A DNA stretch of 64,000 nucleotides, taken from assembly GCA_964486045.1 (NCBI GenBank), contig CAZALK010000007.1, positions 1-64,000 on the forward strand. The letters are read 5' to 3'. Of the stretch, positions 36,262 to 57,827 are shown in pieces. Source of the DNA: an uncultured archaeon. GTDB taxonomy: Archaea; Asgardarchaeota; Lokiarchaeia; Sigyniarchaeales; SOKP01. A program made the translations under genes and the position numbers. Every line of letters begins with the position of its first letter. Within the stretch, counting starts at the first letter, position 1. The notes under the pieces were generated by a model, which saw only the letters and a list, made by a program, of their open reading frames with translations, had not been told where the DNA came from and did not search any database.

Positions 36262-36867
36262 ATGAATGAAGTAAAGGAAAATCAAATCTCTCTTGATGAC
36301 ATTGATTTACCAGAAAAAATCCCTACAAAATTTATAAATAATCGAGTTATTGTTTTTAATCCACTTTTTGCATCATATTTATACGTAAAAGGTGTAAAGG
36401 GTCAACGTTTTTTTGGCTCACCATTAGGAATTAATAAGCCACGTTTAGAATATTTTTCGAAACCTTCGGAATTATCTCTCATTGAAGGCCTTTATCTACT
36501 AGAGGAAGAACATATCACCATTTTTGACGTAAAAGAAAATAAATATTTAGACTCAGAAGAATTCCATGAAATAGCAAAAGCTGTTCATAGCAAGTTTGAG
36601 GAAAAATACATAATTTACAGAGACTTGAGAGAAAAGGGATACATTCCGAGGCCAGGCCTTAAGTTTGGAGCAGATTTTGTTACGTATAAAAAAGGCCCCG
36701 GATTAGAACATTCCCTCTTTATGGTTCATGTTTTACCTCATGATTCTGAAATTACTGCAATAGATATGGTTAGAGCGGGTAGGCTCGCAACTTCTGTGAG
36801 GAAAAAGTTTGTAATCGCAAATCCATTGACGAAATCATATTATTTCTTTGAATGGTTCAAACCGTGA
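36262..36867 (+). CDS. endA: tRNA-splicing (intron) endonuclease, alpha-type subunit
   Basis: LSLIEGLYL, YRDLREKGY, GLKFGADF.TY..GPGLEHS, GRLATSVRKK: catalytic Tyr/His/Lys retained. 201 aa fits a single alpha unit. Confidence 0.93.
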   Translation: MNEVKENQISLDDIDLPEKIPTKFINNRVIVFNPLFASYLYVKGVKGQRFFGSPLGINKPRLEYFSKPSELSLIEGLYLLEEEHITIFDVKENKYLDSEEFHEIAKAVHSKFEEKYIIYRDLREKGYIPRPGLKFGADFVTYKKGPGLEHSLFMVHVLPHDSEITAIDMVRAGRLATSVRKKFVIANPLTKSYYFFEWFKP

Positions 36868-51821: not shown

Positions 51822-52024
51822 AAGAAATTTGCAACTATATTTAATTTTCTTCTATTAACCTAAATGATTAGATAAATAAAAATATAGGTTTGTTGAAAAT
51901 AAACGGTAATAAGCCCATTATTGCGCCTCACCATCAATTTTCTAATTAGTATTTGAATGATAAATGATTTTTAAACATAAAATTACCTTTGATTTTAGAA
52001 TTTAATAAATTAATGTGGATAAAT

Positions 52025-52810
52025 ATGGAATATAAGCATCTTTTGATTGAAAAGCGTGATGATCATATAGCTATAGTTACACTTAACCGTCCAGATCAGC
52101 TCAACGCACTCAATTCAACTTTAATGCGTGAAATTGAACAAGTAACAGGAGAATTTCAAAGAGATACAGAAACTCGTGTAGTAATCTTTACCGGTGCGGG
52201 TAAGTATTTTAGTGTGGGAGCAGATTTAAAAGAACAAAGAAGTCCTTCTACATTACTTGAACAAACAAGGGCCAAACAAATAGGACCAAGAATGATACGT
52301 AAAATATTTATGATTGACCAAATTACGATAGCTGCCATTAACGGTGGGGCTCTGGGCGGTGGAGCATGTATTGTTTCCGCATGTGATTTTCGAATTGGGG
52401 CTGAAGGTTGTATGTCAGGTTTTCCAGAATCTAGGTTAGGGATGAATTTATCATGGGTTTCTGTCCCTCTAGTGGTTCATTTAATAGGACCTACGTTTGC
52501 AAAAGAAATGATTATATTGGGTAAAAATAATGATGCCCAAACACTTCTTAAGTGGGGATTCATAAGTGAGATAGTACCAAGGGAGGGATTGTTAGAAAGG
52601 GCTATAGAGATTGCAAGAAACTATGTAGAAATGCCACCTATTCCTGCTCAGATGATAAAAAAAAGCATTAACCACATCATTGGTGCTCTAGATCAAGCAA
52701 TAATGCACATGGATGCGGATCAACATTCATTGACAATGAAAACAGAGGATTTAAGAGAAGGGATTGCTGCATTCTTTGGCAAGCGTAAAGGCAATTATAA
52801 AGGAAATTAA
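52025..52810 (+). CDS. Enoyl-CoA hydratase/isomerase (crotonase family)
   Basis: TLNRPDQLNAL, FSVGADL, IAAINGGALGGG, PE.RLG, EGIAAF.GKR. Confidence 0.93.
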   Translation: MEYKHLLIEKRDDHIAIVTLNRPDQLNALNSTLMREIEQVTGEFQRDTETRVVIFTGAGKYFSVGADLKEQRSPSTLLEQTRAKQIGPRMIRKIFMIDQITIAAINGGALGGGACIVSACDFRIGAEGCMSGFPESRLGMNLSWVSVPLVVHLIGPTFAKEMIILGKNNDAQTLLKWGFISEIVPREGLLERAIEIARNYVEMPPIPAQMIKKSINHIIGALDQAIMHMDADQHSLTMKTEDLREGIAAFFGKRKGNYKGN

Positions 52811-53035
52811 GAAGAATTATAGTTACAATATATTTTCCTTATTTTTTTTATTATATTACTTCAATTAGAAATCGATTATTCAAATTAAGAGACAAAAAAC
52901 ATGAAATTTTATATTTGAGAATAAAATATATTTAAAATAAAGAAATTATATAAATAATTAAATTGTTAATGTGATTTGAATAATCTTAACCAGAACATTT
53001 CTACCTAAATTACAATTTATTTTCGGAGAGGAAAA

Positions 53036-53695
53036 TTGAAGAGCATCCGGAAAACTATAAGGAATTGGAAACAATATGGAGAACTTTCAGATTTAGGTGA
53101 AATTTCTCGTCGTAAGTTTTTTAACAATTGCTTTGATGGAGCATTAACTTGTGCTGGTATTGTTAGTGGTATATTTATAATATTTCTGGGTCCAAAATCA
53201 GATCTATTTACCCCTCAAAATGTCTTGATTACAGGCATTATGACGACCATTGCGATTGGTCTCTCTGGGTTGTGGGGGGCTTTCCTGTCTGAGGAGGCTG
53301 AGCGTAGGAAAAAGTTATCAGATATGAAAAGAGATATGGCAATCATTGAGGATACAATTGAGGTTGCTGAAGAAGGTAACGGTAAGAAGAAAAATAAAGT
53401 TCCCAAAACGCTCCTCGAAAAAGCTGAGAGTTTTGCTACTATTGTTGCATCTCTGGTAGATGGGGGTGCTCCTGCCGTCGGTAGTCTGCTTCCACTAATT
53501 CCATTTTTCTTTGGGGCGACGTTAACGATTATGCATTTTATGTTTTCCTATGTTATTCTTGCGGGGTTACTCGTATATTTAGGAATATTTTTAGGAAATA
53601 TTTCGGGGGGAGGAAAATTAAGATATGCACTCCACTTAGTAACTGCTGGGGTAGTAACATTGTTAATTAGTTTATTGCTTGGTCAAATAACTTAA
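53036..53695 (+). CDS. VIT1/CCC1 family transporter
   Basis: RRKFFNNCFDGALT, SG..GAFLSE.AER, PLIPFFF; TM helices. Confidence 0.8.
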   Translation: MKSIRKTIRNWKQYGELSDLGEISRRKFFNNCFDGALTCAGIVSGIFIIFLGPKSDLFTPQNVLITGIMTTIAIGLSGLWGAFLSEEAERRKKLSDMKRDMAIIEDTIEVAEEGNGKKKNKVPKTLLEKAESFATIVASLVDGGAPAVGSLLPLIPFFFGATLTIMHFMFSYVILAGLLVYLGIFLGNISGGGKLRYALHLVTAGVVTLLISLLLGQIT

Positions 53696-53751
53696 AAATA
53701 CCCCATGTAAGATTTTTTATTTTATTATTATATTTGTGAATAAAAGGAACG

Positions 53752-54321
53752 GTGGATATAATGGACAGAGGGATACTCTTCTTGGCTAATGAAGTAGCAT
53801 TAGACGTATATAGGGGAGCTATGAACGGTCTAAAGAGAAGTTATTTAAAACGGGGGTTTGTTTTAGTAGAATTGTTTGATACATTGGTATTTCGTGGGGA
53901 TTTAAGCGTATTAGGGAACTTTACGGAGGATCATATGCAATCTTTTGATGAGAAACAGGCTCTTGGGAGAGAGTTCCTATTCGTAATTGGAGGTTCTCTT
54001 GATGATGCGTTAAGAGAAGAACTTAATAAATTTCCTATGTTTAATTATGGATATTGGAAGATCTATGATATACCAGCACTCATATTATTAATTCATAAAG
54101 GTTCCAAAACACAAGACTATAATAACATATTAAGACAATCTGGGGCCAAAGAAATATTTGAATCGTCATATATAATTAATAGCAATGTTTTAGAATTTAT
54201 AAACCAGCAGTTTGAGGTAGAGGAAGATTCAAATACATGTTTTACAACATTCAGATGCTATCCTATAGGTGGAGTAGTTTCTGTAGATACATGGAAAAAC
54301 TCTTTCTATAAAGTTTATTAG
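53752..54321 (+). CDS. Hypothetical protein
   Basis: 189-aa ORF; no recognised motif. Confidence 0.6.
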   Translation: MDIMDRGILFLANEVALDVYRGAMNGLKRSYLKRGFVLVELFDTLVFRGDLSVLGNFTEDHMQSFDEKQALGREFLFVIGGSLDDALREELNKFPMFNYGYWKIYDIPALILLIHKGSKTQDYNNILRQSGAKEIFESSYIINSNVLEFINQQFEVEEDSNTCFTTFRCYPIGGVVSVDTWKNSFYKVY

Positions 54322-54434: not shown

Positions 54435-55241
54435 TTGAAAGCATTTATAGGAATAGATATTGGCTCATTAGCAACCAAGATTGCTTTACTTGATAATGAA
54501 AATTTGTTGGATTTCCGAACAGAGAGATCTACCTACGACTTTAAGAGAATAGGGCTCAATTTGTTTAATGATATCCTAGAAGCAAACAATCTAAGCAGAG
54601 ATGAAGTTTTTGTTATGTCGACTGGCTACGGTCGGAACACAATCGAATTCGCTGATGATCGAATTACTGAAATAACAGCCCACGCAAGAGGAGTACAGTT
54701 CTTCTTTCCAAAGACTCACTCTGTGATAGACATTGGCGGTCAAGATAGTAAAGCCATTTTGATATCAGAAAAGACGGGGAATGTGATTGACTTTCAGATG
54801 AATGATAAATTTAGAATTTAAATTTTAAAGTCAAAATGCGCTGCCGGCACAGGCAGGTTTTTGGAAGTCATGGCAAATGCCCTTGAAGTCCCCATTGAGG
54901 ATATTGGAGGATTAGGTCTACAATCAAATAACCCAGCGTCAATAAGTTCTACATGTACAGTTTTTGCTGAATCTGAAGTTATTTCACTTTTTGCAAAAGG
55001 AACCAAGAAAGAAAATATAGCCTCAGGGATTCATAAATCCATTGCAAGAAGAGTTGCAGGCATGGCTAAACGTATAGGTGTAGCTCCTTTACTAGTTTTT
55101 TGTGGAGGTGTAGCCAAGAATATAGCTGTTAAAAAATTCCTAGAAGATGAGTTAGGATTTGAAATAGTTACTCCTGATCAACCAGAACTGACTGGAGCCA
55201 TCGGAGCAGCCTTAATTGCTCAAAAAAATAATGGTGACTAA
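54435..55241 (+). CDS. Acyl-CoA dehydratase activator (HgdC/BadF-BcrD, ASKHA ATPase with [4Fe-4S]); join(54435..54808,54836..55241), 259 aa after removing a 27-nt insert
   Basis: GIDIGS..TK, STGYGR, TEITAHARG, IDIGGQDSK, MNDK|CAAGTGRFLE, ISSTCTVFAESEVI, GGVAKN, GAIGAAL. Both halves are in the same frame. Confidence 0.93.
54809..54835 (+). other. Candidate bulge-helix-bulge (BHB) mRNA intron, 27 nt
   Basis: UGAU-AAA-UUUAGAAU(UUAA)AUUUUAAA-GUCA-AAA: 4-bp central helix, two 3-nt bulges, 8-bp intron stem. Contains an in-frame TAA. Canonical cuts restore the frame and motif. Confidence 0.8.
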
Positions 55242-55326: not shown

Positions 55327-56463
55327 ATGAAAATGGCCAATTCTGAGCTCTTATCGGAATATTATATATACCTTAAGGAAAAGAAGGAAAAGGGTAAAAA
55401 AATTGTAGCTTTTATGTCTCATGATAATATTCCTGAAGAATTAATAGACGCTGCGGGATTTGTTCCCTTAAGGATGATTTTTGCGGGAAATGATGAATTA
55501 ATGGATGCTAGTCATGATTTCCTCTCTCCGTCAACTTGTGCATTCGCTCAATCTTGTATAGGGGCGTTTTCCATTAAACCAGACAAATATAAGTTTGTAG
55601 AATTAATTGATTATTTTATTGTCTCAAATCATTGTGTTTCAGATATATGTGCTTCTGAAGTTATAGCCAAATACTTTAACATACCCCGCTTAAATTTTTA
55701 TGTTTCATACACTAACACTGAGAGTAGTTTAAAATATTTTAAAATTGAGTTATTAGAATTAAAAGCACAACTTGAAGAGATAAAAGAAACCAAAATAGAT
55801 GCTCAAGATTTAATAAATAGTATTAAGAATTATAATAGTCTTAAGCAAAAGTTATTAGAATTAAGCAATTTAGCAGTGGAGGGGTCTCAGAAGTTAAAGA
55901 TTTTACAAAAAGCGATGTTATACGGACCAGATATCCTTCCTGAATTAGAAACACTTATTCAAGAAAAGAAAAATATCCATAAACCAAGCCATTCCAAAGA
56001 TATTTTACTTACTGGTTGTTCTATTTTCATTGATGATTACTTAAATGAATTAATTGAAGAGGGTGGTGGCAACGTGATCTTTTTTGATACATGGGTTGGC
56101 TTTAATTATTATTCCCAAATCTTTGAAGAAAATGTGCTAGATTCTTCAAAAGATCCGATTGACTTAATAACCCATCGATTTAAGAGAAATATTTATGGAG
56201 ATCATTCAGTTCCTAACTTTTTGGAGAGTAAGATTTCACAAATAGAAACATATTCGAAGAACTATACAAATAAAACGGGAAAGAAAATAGGTGTTATAAA
56301 TCACATTATTAAGTTTTGTGACCATATGTCTATTATGTCCTCACATTTAAAAAACCTATTACAGGAAAAGGGTATTTCAGTATTGAACCTTGAACGAGAT
56401 TATTCTAGAGCCAATAGAGGACAGTTATCAACAAGAATAGAAGCATTTATAGAGATGTTGTGA
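55327..56463 (+). CDS. 2-hydroxyacyl-CoA dehydratase subunit (HgdA/B, HGD-D family)
   Basis: IPEELIDAAG..P, C.F..SC.G, KFCD, L.LE.DY....GQL.TRIEAF.EM. Confidence 0.9.
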   Translation: MKMANSELLSEYYIYLKEKKEKGKKIVAFMSHDNIPEELIDAAGFVPLRMIFAGNDELMDASHDFLSPSTCAFAQSCIGAFSIKPDKYKFVELIDYFIVSNHCVSDICASEVIAKYFNIPRLNFYVSYTNTESSLKYFKIELLELKAQLEEIKETKIDAQDLINSIKNYNSLKQKLLELSNLAVEGSQKLKILQKAMLYGPDILPELETLIQEKKNIHKPSHSKDILLTGCSIFIDDYLNELIEEGGGNVIFFDTWVGFNYYSQIFEENVLDSSKDPIDLITHRFKRNIYGDHSVPNFLESKISQIETYSKNYTNKTGKKIGVINHIIKFCDHMSIMSSHLKNLLQEKGISVLNLERDYSRANRGQLSTRIEAFIEML

Positions 56464-57827
56464 AAAAGATGAGTTTAGTAGCGGATGAATTGATAAGATT
56501 TTCCTCTGTTTTAAAGATAACCCATAATCTTTTAATGGGAAGAGATTACCTTAAGAAAAAAAAGTTTAGAGAGAAAAAGAAGTTAATAGCCGTAGCCTTA
56601 CCTCTTTCGGACTTAGTTTATTCTTTCCCAGATTTAATTCCAATATTACCAATACGAATGCATGAATTTGATGTTCAAAAATATTTCAAATATTTAGGTT
56701 CTGCTTCAAATATTGTTGGGTGGGACGGTGTTTCTAGCCTTTTAGGTTTTTTGAAAAAACTAGGTTTAAAAAATGTCAGCCAAACCATCGATGATACAAT
56801 TGAAAATGTAATCGATGCCATAACCAACAAATATAATGAAATGTATGACTTAGGTGAAGAAAGTGGAATCCCCACGGATTTTTGTTACGGTGTTAAAACG
56901 CTCTACGGAATGAATGTATCAAAAGGAAAGAACTGTGCTGCGAATTTAAATTATACTATACGATGTAGTGCTTGGAATAAATATTTAGAATCATTAAAAA
57001 CAATTGGAAATCATTCTAAGCAAATTTGGATTGAAATTCCTCCAAGGAATATAGGAAATACATTAGAACTTTTTATTGATAACATAAACAATGGGATAAA
57101 TGAGTTAGAGAAAATTAGCGATCACGGTTATAGTGATAAAGTCTTTAGAGATCATCTACAAACTGCCAATCAAATACGTCAGTCTTACAAAGATATTATT
57201 TATGAAATAAGTACTTCGGATTTTTATCCATGCAATCCAGCAACCTTTAGTGAAATTCTCGCGTTATTAAATATTAGCTTTCATGATTACAATTCAAATG
57301 CTACTCGATTTAAAGATAATATTGCTTCTTTATTAAATGAGATGAGAGGGAGGGTAAGAAAAGGCATTGGGATGGATGTTTCCGGAATGCCCAAAATATT
57401 AATTACACCCATGTTCGGTGGTTGGGAACCGAAGACGCATCGGATAATCGCGGAGAAGAATGGGAGAGCTTTGTACGGAGACTGGGATATGTTAGGTTTC
57501 TTAGACCATGTCCCGATAACAAATCGTGTTGATCCTGTTGAGGCTTATGCGAGATTTTTGATGGATATTACTGCAAACGGAATAGGCTGTGACAATAACA
57601 CGCTTACAGATTCATATGTAAGATTAGCTAAGAACCTAAATGTAGATGGATTGGTTTTTGTGCAGGTCTTTGGGTGTCACTCTATATCAAATTGCTATCC
57701 CATGCTAAAACAAAAAATTCATTCAGAATTGGAGATACCAACAATATCCTTGACTTTTAATAAAATGGGGGAAAATTTAGAGCAAGTTCGTACCAGACTC
57801 GGTGCATTCATGGAGATGTACAAATAA
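56460..57827 (+). CDS. 2-hydroxyacyl-CoA dehydratase subunit (HGD-D family)
   Basis: DFCYG, RC, VDG.V....GCHS, EQ.RTRLGAFMEM. Confidence 0.88.
   Translation: MKKMSLVADELIRFSSVLKITHNLLMGRDYLKKKKFREKKKLIAVALPLSDLVYSFPDLIPILPIRMHEFDVQKYFKYLGSASNIVGWDGVSSLLGFLKKLGLKNVSQTIDDTIENVIDAITNKYNEMYDLGEESGIPTDFCYGVKTLYGMNVSKGKNCAANLNYTIRCSAWNKYLESLKTIGNHSKQIWIEIPPRNIGNTLELFIDNINNGINELEKISDHGYSDKVFRDHLQTANQIRQSYKDIIYEISTSDFYPCNPATFSEILALLNISFHDYNSNATRFKDNIASLLNEMRGRVRKGIGMDVSGMPKILITPMFGGWEPKTHRIIAEKNGRALYGDWDMLGFLDHVPITNRVDPVEAYARFLMDITANGIGCDNNTLTDSYVRLAKNLNVDGLVFVQVFGCHSISNCYPMLKQKIHSELEIPTISLTFNKMGENLEQVRTRLGAFMEMYK

What the first reader, a model, noticed from the sequence alone, without database searches (positions are those of the whole stretch)
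54795..54843. Canonical bulge-helix-bulge intron inside a protein-coding gene (dehydratase activator) of a probable Asgard archaeon
Seen: the two activator ORFs are in the same frame, separated by exactly 27 extra nt within the invariant MNDK-CAAGTG motif, immediately before the [4Fe-4S] Cys codon. The insert carries an in-frame TAA (54819-21). As RNA it folds into central helix UGAU(54803-06)/GUCA(54830-33), 3-nt bulges AAA(54807-09) and AAA(54834-36), and an 8-bp intron stem UUUAGAAU(54810-17)/AUUUUAAA(54822-29) with a UUAA loop. An imperfect exon-exon helix (54795-802/54837-43) closes it. Established: archaeal EndA cuts BHB motifs after the 2nd nt of each bulge. Doing so removes 54809-54835 and gives ...GAT AA|A TGC..., an intact 259-aa activator. 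The archaeal BHB mRNA intron I know of is crenarchaeal cbf5; I know of none in a metabolic gene or in Asgards. Inference: EndA/RtcB-type mRNA splicing gates expression of this enzyme, reminiscent of eukaryotic non-spliceosomal mRNA splicing. Annotation would call it a pseudogene.
Basis: partly seen in the sequence, partly recalled or inferred. Interest (0 to 1): 0.95.

Follow-up and report, generated by a model that had tools for sequence, protein, structure and literature searches.

The report
tRNA-type mini-intron in Asgard enzyme gene
A 27-base hairpin with a stop codon interrupts an otherwise intact enzyme-activator gene of an Asgard archaeon. Eleven related genomes carry different hairpins at the same spot, all shaped like tRNA introns, so the messenger RNA is very probably cut and rejoined by the tRNA-splicing enzymes; in the papers I could search this is published for one archaeal coding sequence only (cbf5).

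Summary
A BcrAD/HgdC-type activator gene (54435-55241, +) is broken by exactly 27 nt (54809-54835) between MNDK and CAAGTG, just before the [4Fe-4S] Cys, with an in-frame TAA.

Energy of the single sequence is unremarkable (z about 0). The case rests on comparison:
- 11 of 154 genomes of the order, in two genera only, carry a 27-35 nt insert at this same site.
- Inner hairpins differ in sequence, but the intron GUCA that pairs with exon UGAU/UGAC is invariant.
- Six lengths are not multiples of 3; the other five carry a stop.
- Cutting after the 2nd bulge nucleotide always restores Asp-Lys-Cys. In one genome the Lys codon exists only after that cut.
- Spliced genes are full length, with dN/dS 0.05-0.09, as in intronless orthologs.
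- The insert is present in DNA contigs of two runs.
- The genome has EndA alpha and beta plus RtcB.
- Its single uS10 gene has a textbook 31-nt BHB intron.

No RNA data were available, so splicing is inferred. "Canonical" is overstated: the outer helix is weak (relaxed HBh' form). Regulatory "gating" is unsupported. The scan has reported the same kind of intron in at least 18 other Asgard genomes. In the papers I could search, only cbf5 has one inside a coding sequence.

The parts
54435..54808 (+). Exon 1 of the activator gene (TTG start; ends with GAU AA, the first two bases of the Lys codon)
   Evidence: Pfam BcrAD_BadFG match over residues 5-262, E 6.9e-57.
54809..54835 (+). 27-nt BHB-type intron (phase 2), with in-frame TAA at 54819-21
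   Evidence: Absent from more than 140 orthologs. Replaced by 30-35 nt inserts at the same site in 10 other genomes. Present in DNA contigs of two runs.
54836..55241 (+). Exon 2 (A of the Lys codon, then Cys-Ala-Ala-Gly-Thr-Gly ... to stop TAA)
   Evidence: Alignment to 1HUX puts the cluster-ligand Cys127 directly after the junction.
54803..54806 (+). 5' strand of the 4-bp central helix (exon UGAU, from the Asn-Asp codons)
   Evidence: Pairs with 54830-33. It is UGAC, giving 4 Watson-Crick pairs, in G119.
54830..54833 (+). 3' strand of the central helix (intron GUCA)
   Evidence: Invariant in all 11 carriers although the inner region is nearly randomised.
54807..54809 (+). Bulge 1 (AAA); predicted 5' cut between 54808 and 54809
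   Evidence: Cleavage between the 2nd and 3rd bulge residue is the rule for cbf5 and tRNA introns (PMC2738675). It restores Asp-Lys-Cys in all carriers.
54834..54836 (+). Bulge 2 / 3' splice region (AAA); predicted 3' cut between 54835 and 54836
   Evidence: As for bulge 1. It is closed only by a weak exon-exon helix.
54810..54829 (+). Intron hairpin h' (stem 54810-17 / 54822-29, loop UUAA 54818-21)
   Evidence: All 11 carriers have a 6-10 bp hairpin here with different sequences.
55327..57827 (+). Two HGD-D genes (55327-56463 and 56460-57827), the dehydratase that the activator serves; both intact
   Evidence: Pfam PF06050, E 1.9e-53 and 2.4e-34.
36262..36867 (+). endA, catalytic alpha subunit of the splicing endonuclease
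   Evidence: PF01974 102 bits and TIGR00324. It keeps the Tyr/His/Lys positions. The second paralog, on contig C10, lacks the His.

Best explanation
The 27 nt at 54809-54835 are an archaeal bulge-helix-bulge (tRNA-type) intron inside the coding sequence of an HgdC/BcrAD-type activator ATPase.

Proposed mechanism:
- In the pre-mRNA, exon UGAU (from the Asn-Asp codons) pairs with intron GUCA to make the 4-bp central helix.
- An intron hairpin closes the 5' bulge. The 3' cut site lies in an A-rich stretch that is only weakly closed by exon-exon pairing. This is the relaxed HBh' form.
- The heterotetrameric (alpha-beta)2 EndA cuts after the second bulge nucleotide on each side.
- RtcB joins the exons to give GAU AAA UGC (Asp-Lys-Cys) and probably circularises the intron.
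- Only the spliced mRNA encodes the 259-aa activator with its [4Fe-4S] Cys.

Shown here: the anatomy, the conservation pattern, the selection on the gene and the presence of the enzymes. Inferred: the cleavage and ligation themselves.

The intron looks like one of a set in this genome, because uS10 and a Ras-like GTPase carry similar inserts. It is gained and lost among close relatives rather than serving an obvious regulatory role.
For: 1. Same-site inserts occur in 11 of 154 genomes of the order: genus g1 7/54, genus g22 4/42, and 0/58 in 22 other genera.
2. Lengths are 27, 30, 30, 30, 32, 32, 32, 32, 33, 35 and 35 nt. Six break the frame, and the other five carry TAA or TAG.
3. The inner region has median identity 0.64 against 0.58 for shuffled sequence, yet every copy folds into a 6-10 bp hairpin (0-72 of 1000 shuffles fold as well). 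GUCA plus bulge 2 has median identity 1.0.
4. In G119 the exon reads UGAC, turning the U.G pair into C-G.
5. The canonical cut restores D-K-C in all carriers. In G004 (AA|C...AU|A) the invariant Lys codon exists only after that cut.
6. All 7 genus-g1 genes are open over full length after removal. Carrier-carrier dN/dS is 0.05-0.09 at dS 0.6-1.4, against a median of 0.08 for intronless pairs.
7. The insert is present without indels in contigs of two runs, at depth 272 and 81.
8. The genome has two EndA paralogs (one catalytic, one lacking His) and one RtcB. Asgard (alpha-beta)2 EndA carries the L1 loop linked to broad specificity (PMC5829648).
9. The single uS10 gene of this 99%-complete genome has a 31-nt insert relative to 5 same-genus orthologs. 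Its minimum-energy fold is a strict hBHBh' motif.
Against: No RNA evidence was available: no transcript, junction or circular intron. The single-sequence fold is not more stable than shuffles. The outer exon-exon helix is weak or absent. In some carriers (L124, G119, G005, G042) 2-7 unpaired bases separate bulge 1 from the hairpin, so the motif is relaxed and the assumed EndA tolerance is untested. My structure-first genome scans showed no measurable enrichment of BHB geometry at frame-restoring sites. A genome-wide claim therefore rests on a few verified genes.
Confidence: 0.85

Rival explanations
1. The gene is a pseudogene. A short hairpin-forming insertion inactivated the activator and merely resembles a BHB motif.
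For: There is an in-frame stop. The fold energy is at chance level for an AT-rich sequence. Automatic annotation would call it broken. A few other genes in this genome do have plain nonsense codons.
Against: Eleven genomes keep an insert at the same nucleotide, with no other lesion in the 7 genes checked. dN/dS of 0.05-0.09 at dS up to 1.4 equals that of intact orthologs. GUCA is invariant while the rest of the insert drifts. The downstream HGD-D genes are intact.
Confidence: 0.04
2. Translational bypassing: the ribosome hops over the insert, as in phage T4 gene 60, from an AAA take-off codon to an AAA landing codon. No RNA cutting is involved.
For: In the window the codon before the gap (AAA 54807-09) equals the codon before UGC (AAA 54834-36). 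A hairpin with a stop follows the take-off site.
Against: Take-off and landing codons do not match in G004 (AAC / AUA) or G052 (AAU / AAA). Hopping there would lose or replace the invariant Lys. The conserved element is GUCA pairing with exon UGAU, which bypassing does not need. The uS10 insert has no matching codons but a perfect BHB.
Confidence: 0.03
3. The insert is removed or avoided by some other route: an unknown RNA-processing activity, excision from DNA in part of the population, or two separate polypeptides that assemble.
For: Splicing by EndA has not been shown. Contigs cannot exclude a minor intronless DNA variant.
Against: No start codon lies between the stop and the Cys codon, so two polypeptides would lose the cluster ligand. 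The geometry and cut positions fit EndA exactly (PMC2738675). No indel variant appeared in two runs. At 27-35 nt the insert is far too small for a group I or II intron, and Rfam finds nothing.
Confidence: 0.06
4. The insert is an assembly or sequencing artefact.
For: The genome is a metagenome-assembled genome with 7.8% estimated contamination.
Against: The same insert is in independently built contigs of two runs, one of them with a nearby SNP. Homologous inserts occur in 10 other assemblies from different studies.
Confidence: 0.01

Closest known systems
BHB intron in the cbf5 pre-mRNA of Crenarchaeota (Desulfurococcales, Sulfolobales; Watanabe 2002; Yoshinari 2006; Yokobori 2009, PMC2738675)
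   Same: Both are short introns inside a protein-coding sequence. Both use a relaxed BHB motif built partly from exon sequence, with cuts between the 2nd and 3rd bulge residues. Both depend on a hetero-oligomeric EndA. In both, the internal region is highly variable and the parts that pair with the exon are conserved. Both show patchy gain and loss among relatives.
   Different: The host gene differs (a metabolic activator ATPase, not an RNA-modification enzyme), as does the phylum (Asgard/Promethearchaeota). Here it is one of several interrupted protein genes in the same genome, including uS10. No cDNA or in vitro cleavage evidence exists here.
BHB element in the 5' UTR of HVO_1309 mRNA, Haloferax volcanii (PMC7714728)
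   Same: EndA acts on an mRNA outside tRNA and rRNA.
   Different: That element lies in the untranslated leader and does not interrupt a reading frame. It was shown experimentally.
Non-canonical tRNA introns of Asgard and TACK archaea (PMC5829648; bioRxiv 10.64898/2026.10.13.758758)
   Same: The size range, the relaxed BHB geometry, the (alpha-beta)2 EndA, and repeated gains at sites where exon sequence can supply half of the motif are the same. ARAGORN finds only 31 tRNAs in this genome, 20 of them with introns.
   Different: The host is an mRNA, so the intron must be removed before translation, which in prokaryotes can start on the nascent RNA.
HgdC, activator of (R)-2-hydroxyglutaryl-CoA dehydratase (PDB 1HUX), the family of the host gene
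   Same: The match is E 3.1e-61 over the whole length. It includes the DKCAAGTG motif with Cys127 and the STCTVFAESE motif with the second Cys. Two HGD-D genes lie next to it.
   Different: The substrate of this dehydratase is unknown. No family member with an intron is described in the papers I searched.

Membership tests
Archaeal BHB (EndA-dependent) intron | 4-bp central helix flanked by 3-nt bulges on opposite strands | tested here: met
   UGAU/GUCA with AAA and AAA is the minimum-energy fold of 54798-54850. The same helix is present in all 11 carriers.
Archaeal BHB (EndA-dependent) intron | Strict hBHBh' form: both bulges closed by an outer exon-exon helix and an inner intron helix | tested here: not met
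   The inner helix is present, but the outer helix is only -2.0 kcal/mol here and about 0 in most carriers. This is the relaxed HBh' form, as in most cbf5 introns.
Archaeal BHB (EndA-dependent) intron | Cuts between the 2nd and 3rd bulge nucleotide give a functional product | tested here: met
   The cuts restore Asp-Lys-Cys and the frame in all 11 carriers. In G004 only this cut yields Lys.
Archaeal BHB (EndA-dependent) intron | Structure conserved, with sequence change, among homologs | tested here: met
   The hairpins differ in sequence and all fold. GUCA is invariant while the inner region is near random. The exon U-to-C change in G119 improves the pair.
Archaeal BHB (EndA-dependent) intron | Host encodes a splicing endonuclease of broad specificity and an RtcB ligase | tested here: met
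   EndA alpha (window 36262-36867), a beta-like paralog lacking His (C10) and RtcB (C1) are present. The L1 loop itself was not examined.
Archaeal BHB (EndA-dependent) intron | Spliced RNA, a circular intron, or in vitro cleavage observed | not testable with these tools
   No RNA run holds this sequence.
BcrAD_BadFG / HgdC activator ATPase (host gene) | Full-length family match with both cluster-binding Cys motifs, next to HGD-D genes | tested here: met
   Pfam E 6.9e-57. 1HUX E 3.1e-61 with C127 aligned.
Translational bypass element (T4 gene 60 type) | Matching take-off and landing codons | tested here: not met
   The codons match in the window, but not in G004 (AAC/AUA) or G052 (AAU/AAA).
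Group I / group II intron, or other Rfam family | Match to a ribozyme model; size of hundreds of nt | tested here: not met
   No Rfam match in the window. The insert is 27 nt.
MITE / small mobile repeat | Multiple copies in the genome | tested here: not met
   blastn-short of all intron variants against the genome gives only the locus itself and chance 14-21 nt matches.

The most novel reading that the evidence does not exclude
This Asgard family runs genome-wide, EndA/RtcB-dependent splicing of messenger RNAs. On this reading, tens or more of protein genes, including the essential ribosomal protein uS10, small GTPases and metabolic enzymes, carry 27-35 nt tRNA-type introns. These introns arise repeatedly at sites where codons happen to supply half of a BHB motif, and they are lost precisely. 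A prokaryote on the eukaryotic stem lineage would then already have to finish splicing before translation. That bears on ideas that intron invasion drove the separation of transcription from translation.
Probability: 0.55. Interest if true: 0.9.

Novelty: new member of a known kind. Interest (0 to 1): 0.8.

Why it matters
In the papers I could search, EndA-type splicing inside a coding sequence is documented for one archaeal gene family only, cbf5 in Crenarchaeota. One further case lies in a 5' UTR. [quoted passage not shown] It sits alongside an interrupted ribosomal protein gene in the same genome.

If confirmed:
- Many Asgard 'pseudogenes' and split genes in databases would be annotation errors.
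- Metabolic reconstructions of these organisms would need correcting.
- The problem of removing a stop-containing intron before ribosomes reach it, in a cell without a nucleus, would become directly testable.
- The polymorphism (11 carriers among 154 genomes, with diverged introns at one site) would offer a natural system for studying how protein-spliced introns are gained and lost.

Tried and rejected
1. RNA evidence: no RNA holder was listed for this sequence, so expression and splicing could not be examined.
2. Structure-first genome scans for BHB hairpins that restore reading frames gave about 370,000 chance hairpins in this 31% GC genome. The rate of frame-joining was the same (1.1%) whatever the central-helix pairing. 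Adding a paralog-spanning BLAST filter did not help. The method cannot count introns here, and I make no genome-wide count.
3. Rfam and ARAGORN found nothing in the window.
4. No second copy of any of the intron variants exists in the genome, so the mobile-repeat idea is dropped.
5. A search of 5.8 billion proteins for an uninterrupted protein nearly identical to this one, which could have come from a spliced transcript assembly, found only relatives at 88% identity or less.
6. Three other Ras-family genes with internal stops (C1:96650-97500, C2:161000-161650, C6:93900-94450) are not intron cases. They show plain nonsense codons or unclear structure.
7. A formal covariation count on a MAFFT alignment was not attempted. 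The hairpins differ in length and would not align; structure-anchored description was used instead.

Full report
**What is in the sequence**

The + strand at 54435-55241 encodes a BcrAD_BadFG / HgdC-type activator ATPase (Pfam E 6.9e-57; PDB 1HUX E 3.1e-61). Two HGD-D dehydratase genes follow it (55327-57827). The frame reads ...FQMNDK FRI*ILKSK CAAGTGRFLEV.... That is nine extra codons, one of them TAA at 54819-21, inside the most conserved motif of the family. The 1HUX alignment has a 9-residue gap exactly there, and the next residues are K126 and C127. By my recollection of the HgdC structure paper, C127 is a [4Fe-4S] ligand. Removing 54809-54835 gives GAT AAA TGC and a 259-aa protein.

**Is the fold more than chance?**

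Taken alone, it is not. The described structure is central helix UGAU/GUCA, two AAA bulges, an 8-bp stem and a UUAA loop. It is the minimum-energy fold of 54798-54850, but only at -5.6 kcal/mol with z 0.02. In a 59-nt context the central helix drops out. In a 31% GC genome such hairpins are everywhere. The proposed exon-exon helix is worth only -2.0 kcal/mol.

**Comparative evidence**

Most of the 23 uninterrupted same-genus orthologs run straight through as AAYGAYAAR-TGYGC. One ortholog (G004) has a 30-nt insert at the same nucleotide. A pattern search found inserts at this site in 7 of 54 genomes of the genus. Across the order it found 11 of 154 genomes: genus g1 7/54, genus g22 4/42, and none in 58 genomes of 22 other genera. 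One further hit, G134, is ordinary coding sequence. Nine carriers also turned up among 80 GTDB species loci whose record titles name Promethearchaeota, confirming the Asgard assignment.

- **Lengths.** They are 27, 30, 30, 30, 32, 32, 32, 32, 33, 35 and 35 nt. Six break the frame, and the other five contain TAA or TAG.
- **Structure.** Every insert ends in GUCA plus a 3-nt A-rich stretch and contains a 6-10 bp hairpin. Each hairpin folds better than nearly all of its own shuffles (0-72 of 1000).
- **Sequence.** The hairpin sequences are close to random with respect to each other (median identity 0.64 against 0.58 for shuffles). GUCA plus bulge 2 is invariant or nearly so (median identity 1.0).
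- **Exon change.** In G119 the Asp codon is GAC, so the U.G pair becomes C-G.

This is the pattern described for cbf5 introns: a variable interior, with conservation only where the intron pairs with the exon (PMC2738675).

**Cut positions**

Cleavage between the 2nd and 3rd bulge residues is the rule for BHB motifs. It restores Asp-Lys-Cys in all 11 carriers. G004 is diagnostic. Its DNA reads GAU AAC ... GUCA AUA UGU, so the invariant Lys codon does not exist in the DNA and is created only by joining AA to A. Other 30-nt deletions would give Ile. This also argues against ribosome hopping, which needs matching take-off and landing codons: AAC/AUA in G004 and AAU/AAA in G052 do not match.

**Is the gene alive?**

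After in-silico splicing, all seven genus-g1 genes are open over 264-282 codons. Carrier-carrier dN/dS is 0.05-0.09 at dS 0.6-1.4, the same as for intronless pairs (median 0.08). The downstream dehydratase genes are intact. The gene therefore makes protein, and the insert must be removed.

**Not an artefact, not a repeat**

The insert is present without indels in contigs of two sequencing runs, at depth 272 and 81, one of them with a nearby SNP. No other copy of any intron variant exists in the genome. Rfam finds nothing.

**Machinery**

- The genome has two EndA paralogs that are 32% identical. The one in this window (36262-36867) keeps the Tyr/His/Lys positions. The one on contig C10 lacks the His. 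That fits an (alpha-beta)2 enzyme.
- There is one RtcB.
- Asgard (alpha-beta)2 EndA carries the L1 insert associated with broad substrate range (PMC5829648). The weak outer helix here would need that range.

**Context in the same genome**

- **uS10.** The only uS10 gene matches the Pfam model from position 22 onward only. Aligned with five same-genus orthologs, it has a 31-nt insert. Its minimum-energy fold is a textbook hBHBh': UCUGUG-UGCA-AAA...UGCG-ACU-CACAGG, at -15.4 kcal/mol. The canonical cuts give VCK|SQG, as in ortholog G001. A single-copy ribosomal protein gene cannot be dispensable, so this organism very probably splices mRNA.
- **Ras-like GTPase.** The gene at C1:354166-354678 has a 30-nt insert with TGA and TAA between WDFAGE and KKFR, with GGAG/CUCU pairing.
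- **DKHST|GGVPGN gene.** This gene on C7 has a 30-nt insert with CAGU/GCUG pairing (seen).
- **tRNAs.** ARAGORN finds only 31 tRNAs, 20 of them with introns. This fits the report of intron-laden Asgard tRNA genes (bioRxiv 10.64898/2026.10.13.758758).
- **Earlier scan notes.** Notes of this scan list more cases in this genome and follow-ups in at least 18 other Asgard genomes. I tested only the uS10 and GTPase notes myself.

**History of the intron**

On the protein tree the carriers fall in at least 3-4 places. Intron subfamilies exist: G005/G042, and G045/G119/L081/L124. The G045 intron (g1) is most like that of G119 (g22). Either one old intron was lost many times, or intron-bearing alleles move between species. 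I cannot tell which.

**Limits**

There is no RNA evidence. My structure-first genome scans could not measure enrichment. I found nothing to support a regulatory role; 'gating' holds only in the trivial sense that expression needs splicing.

**Prior knowledge**

In the searchable library, BHB elements in mRNAs are reported only for crenarchaeal cbf5 and the HVO_1309 5' UTR (PMC7714728; searches). Subscription journals are not covered.

**Verdict**

This is a real feature: very probably a spliced tRNA-type mRNA intron (confidence 0.85). It is a new member of a known kind, in a lineage and gene class where none is published.

Noticed in passing
G000 contig C9:148801-148861 (locus L130:1462-1522): The single-copy ribosomal protein uS10 gene carries a 31-nt insert relative to five same-genus orthologs. 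It folds as a strict hBHBh' motif (outer helix UCUGUG/CACAGG, central helix UGCA/UGCG, bulges AAA and ACU). The canonical cuts give VCK|SQG.
   Followed up: yes
G000 contig C1:354166-354678: A Ras-like GTPase gene has a 30-nt insert carrying TGA and TAA between WDFAGE and KKFRLL. Exon GGAG pairs with intron CUCU, the bulges are AAU and AAA, and the inner hairpin is weaker.
   Followed up: partly
G000 contig C7, minus strand, about 122 kb beyond the window end: A gene with the DKHST|GGVPGN motif (thymidine-phosphorylase-like, from memory) is split by a 30-nt insert with UAG and UAA. The central helix is CAGU/GCUG and the bulges are ACA and AAC. Seen in the output.
   Followed up: partly
Genomes G007, G010, G012, G013 (same genus): No uS10 Pfam match was found at all, although completeness is 83-99%. 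Their uS10 genes may be interrupted more heavily, or may not be assembled.
   Followed up: no
G000 whole genome: ARAGORN finds only 31 tRNA genes in a 99%-complete genome, 20 of them with introns, and some calls are doubtful (Pyl, Stop). This suggests many heavily interrupted tRNA genes that escape detection.
   Followed up: no
G013 contigs C40:1058-1819 and C56:55096-55904: This genome holds two copies of the activator gene. An intronless copy sits on a 2-kb contig and branches at the base of the genus. An intron-bearing copy lies next to the dehydratase genes. The first may be contamination.
   Followed up: partly
L157 (G045, genus g1) and L164 (G119, genus g22): Their introns are 84% identical in the inner region, more than most within-genus pairs, although the host proteins group by genus. 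This hints at transfer of intron-bearing alleles or retention of an old intron type.
   Followed up: partly
G000 C2:161000-161650 (-) and C6:93900-94450 (+); G006 C1:2476425-2477180: Genes of the Ras family and of the activator family carry single in-frame stops without any insert. One is a TGA where I would expect the family's conserved Trp (from memory; no alignment was made). They may be nonsense mutations, recoding or sequencing errors.
   Followed up: partly
window 51989-54321: Upstream of the activator lie an enoyl-CoA hydratase gene (51989-52810), a membrane protein gene (53036-53695) and a 189-aa ORF with no Pfam match (53752-54321). They may belong to the same acyl-CoA pathway operon.
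   Followed up: no
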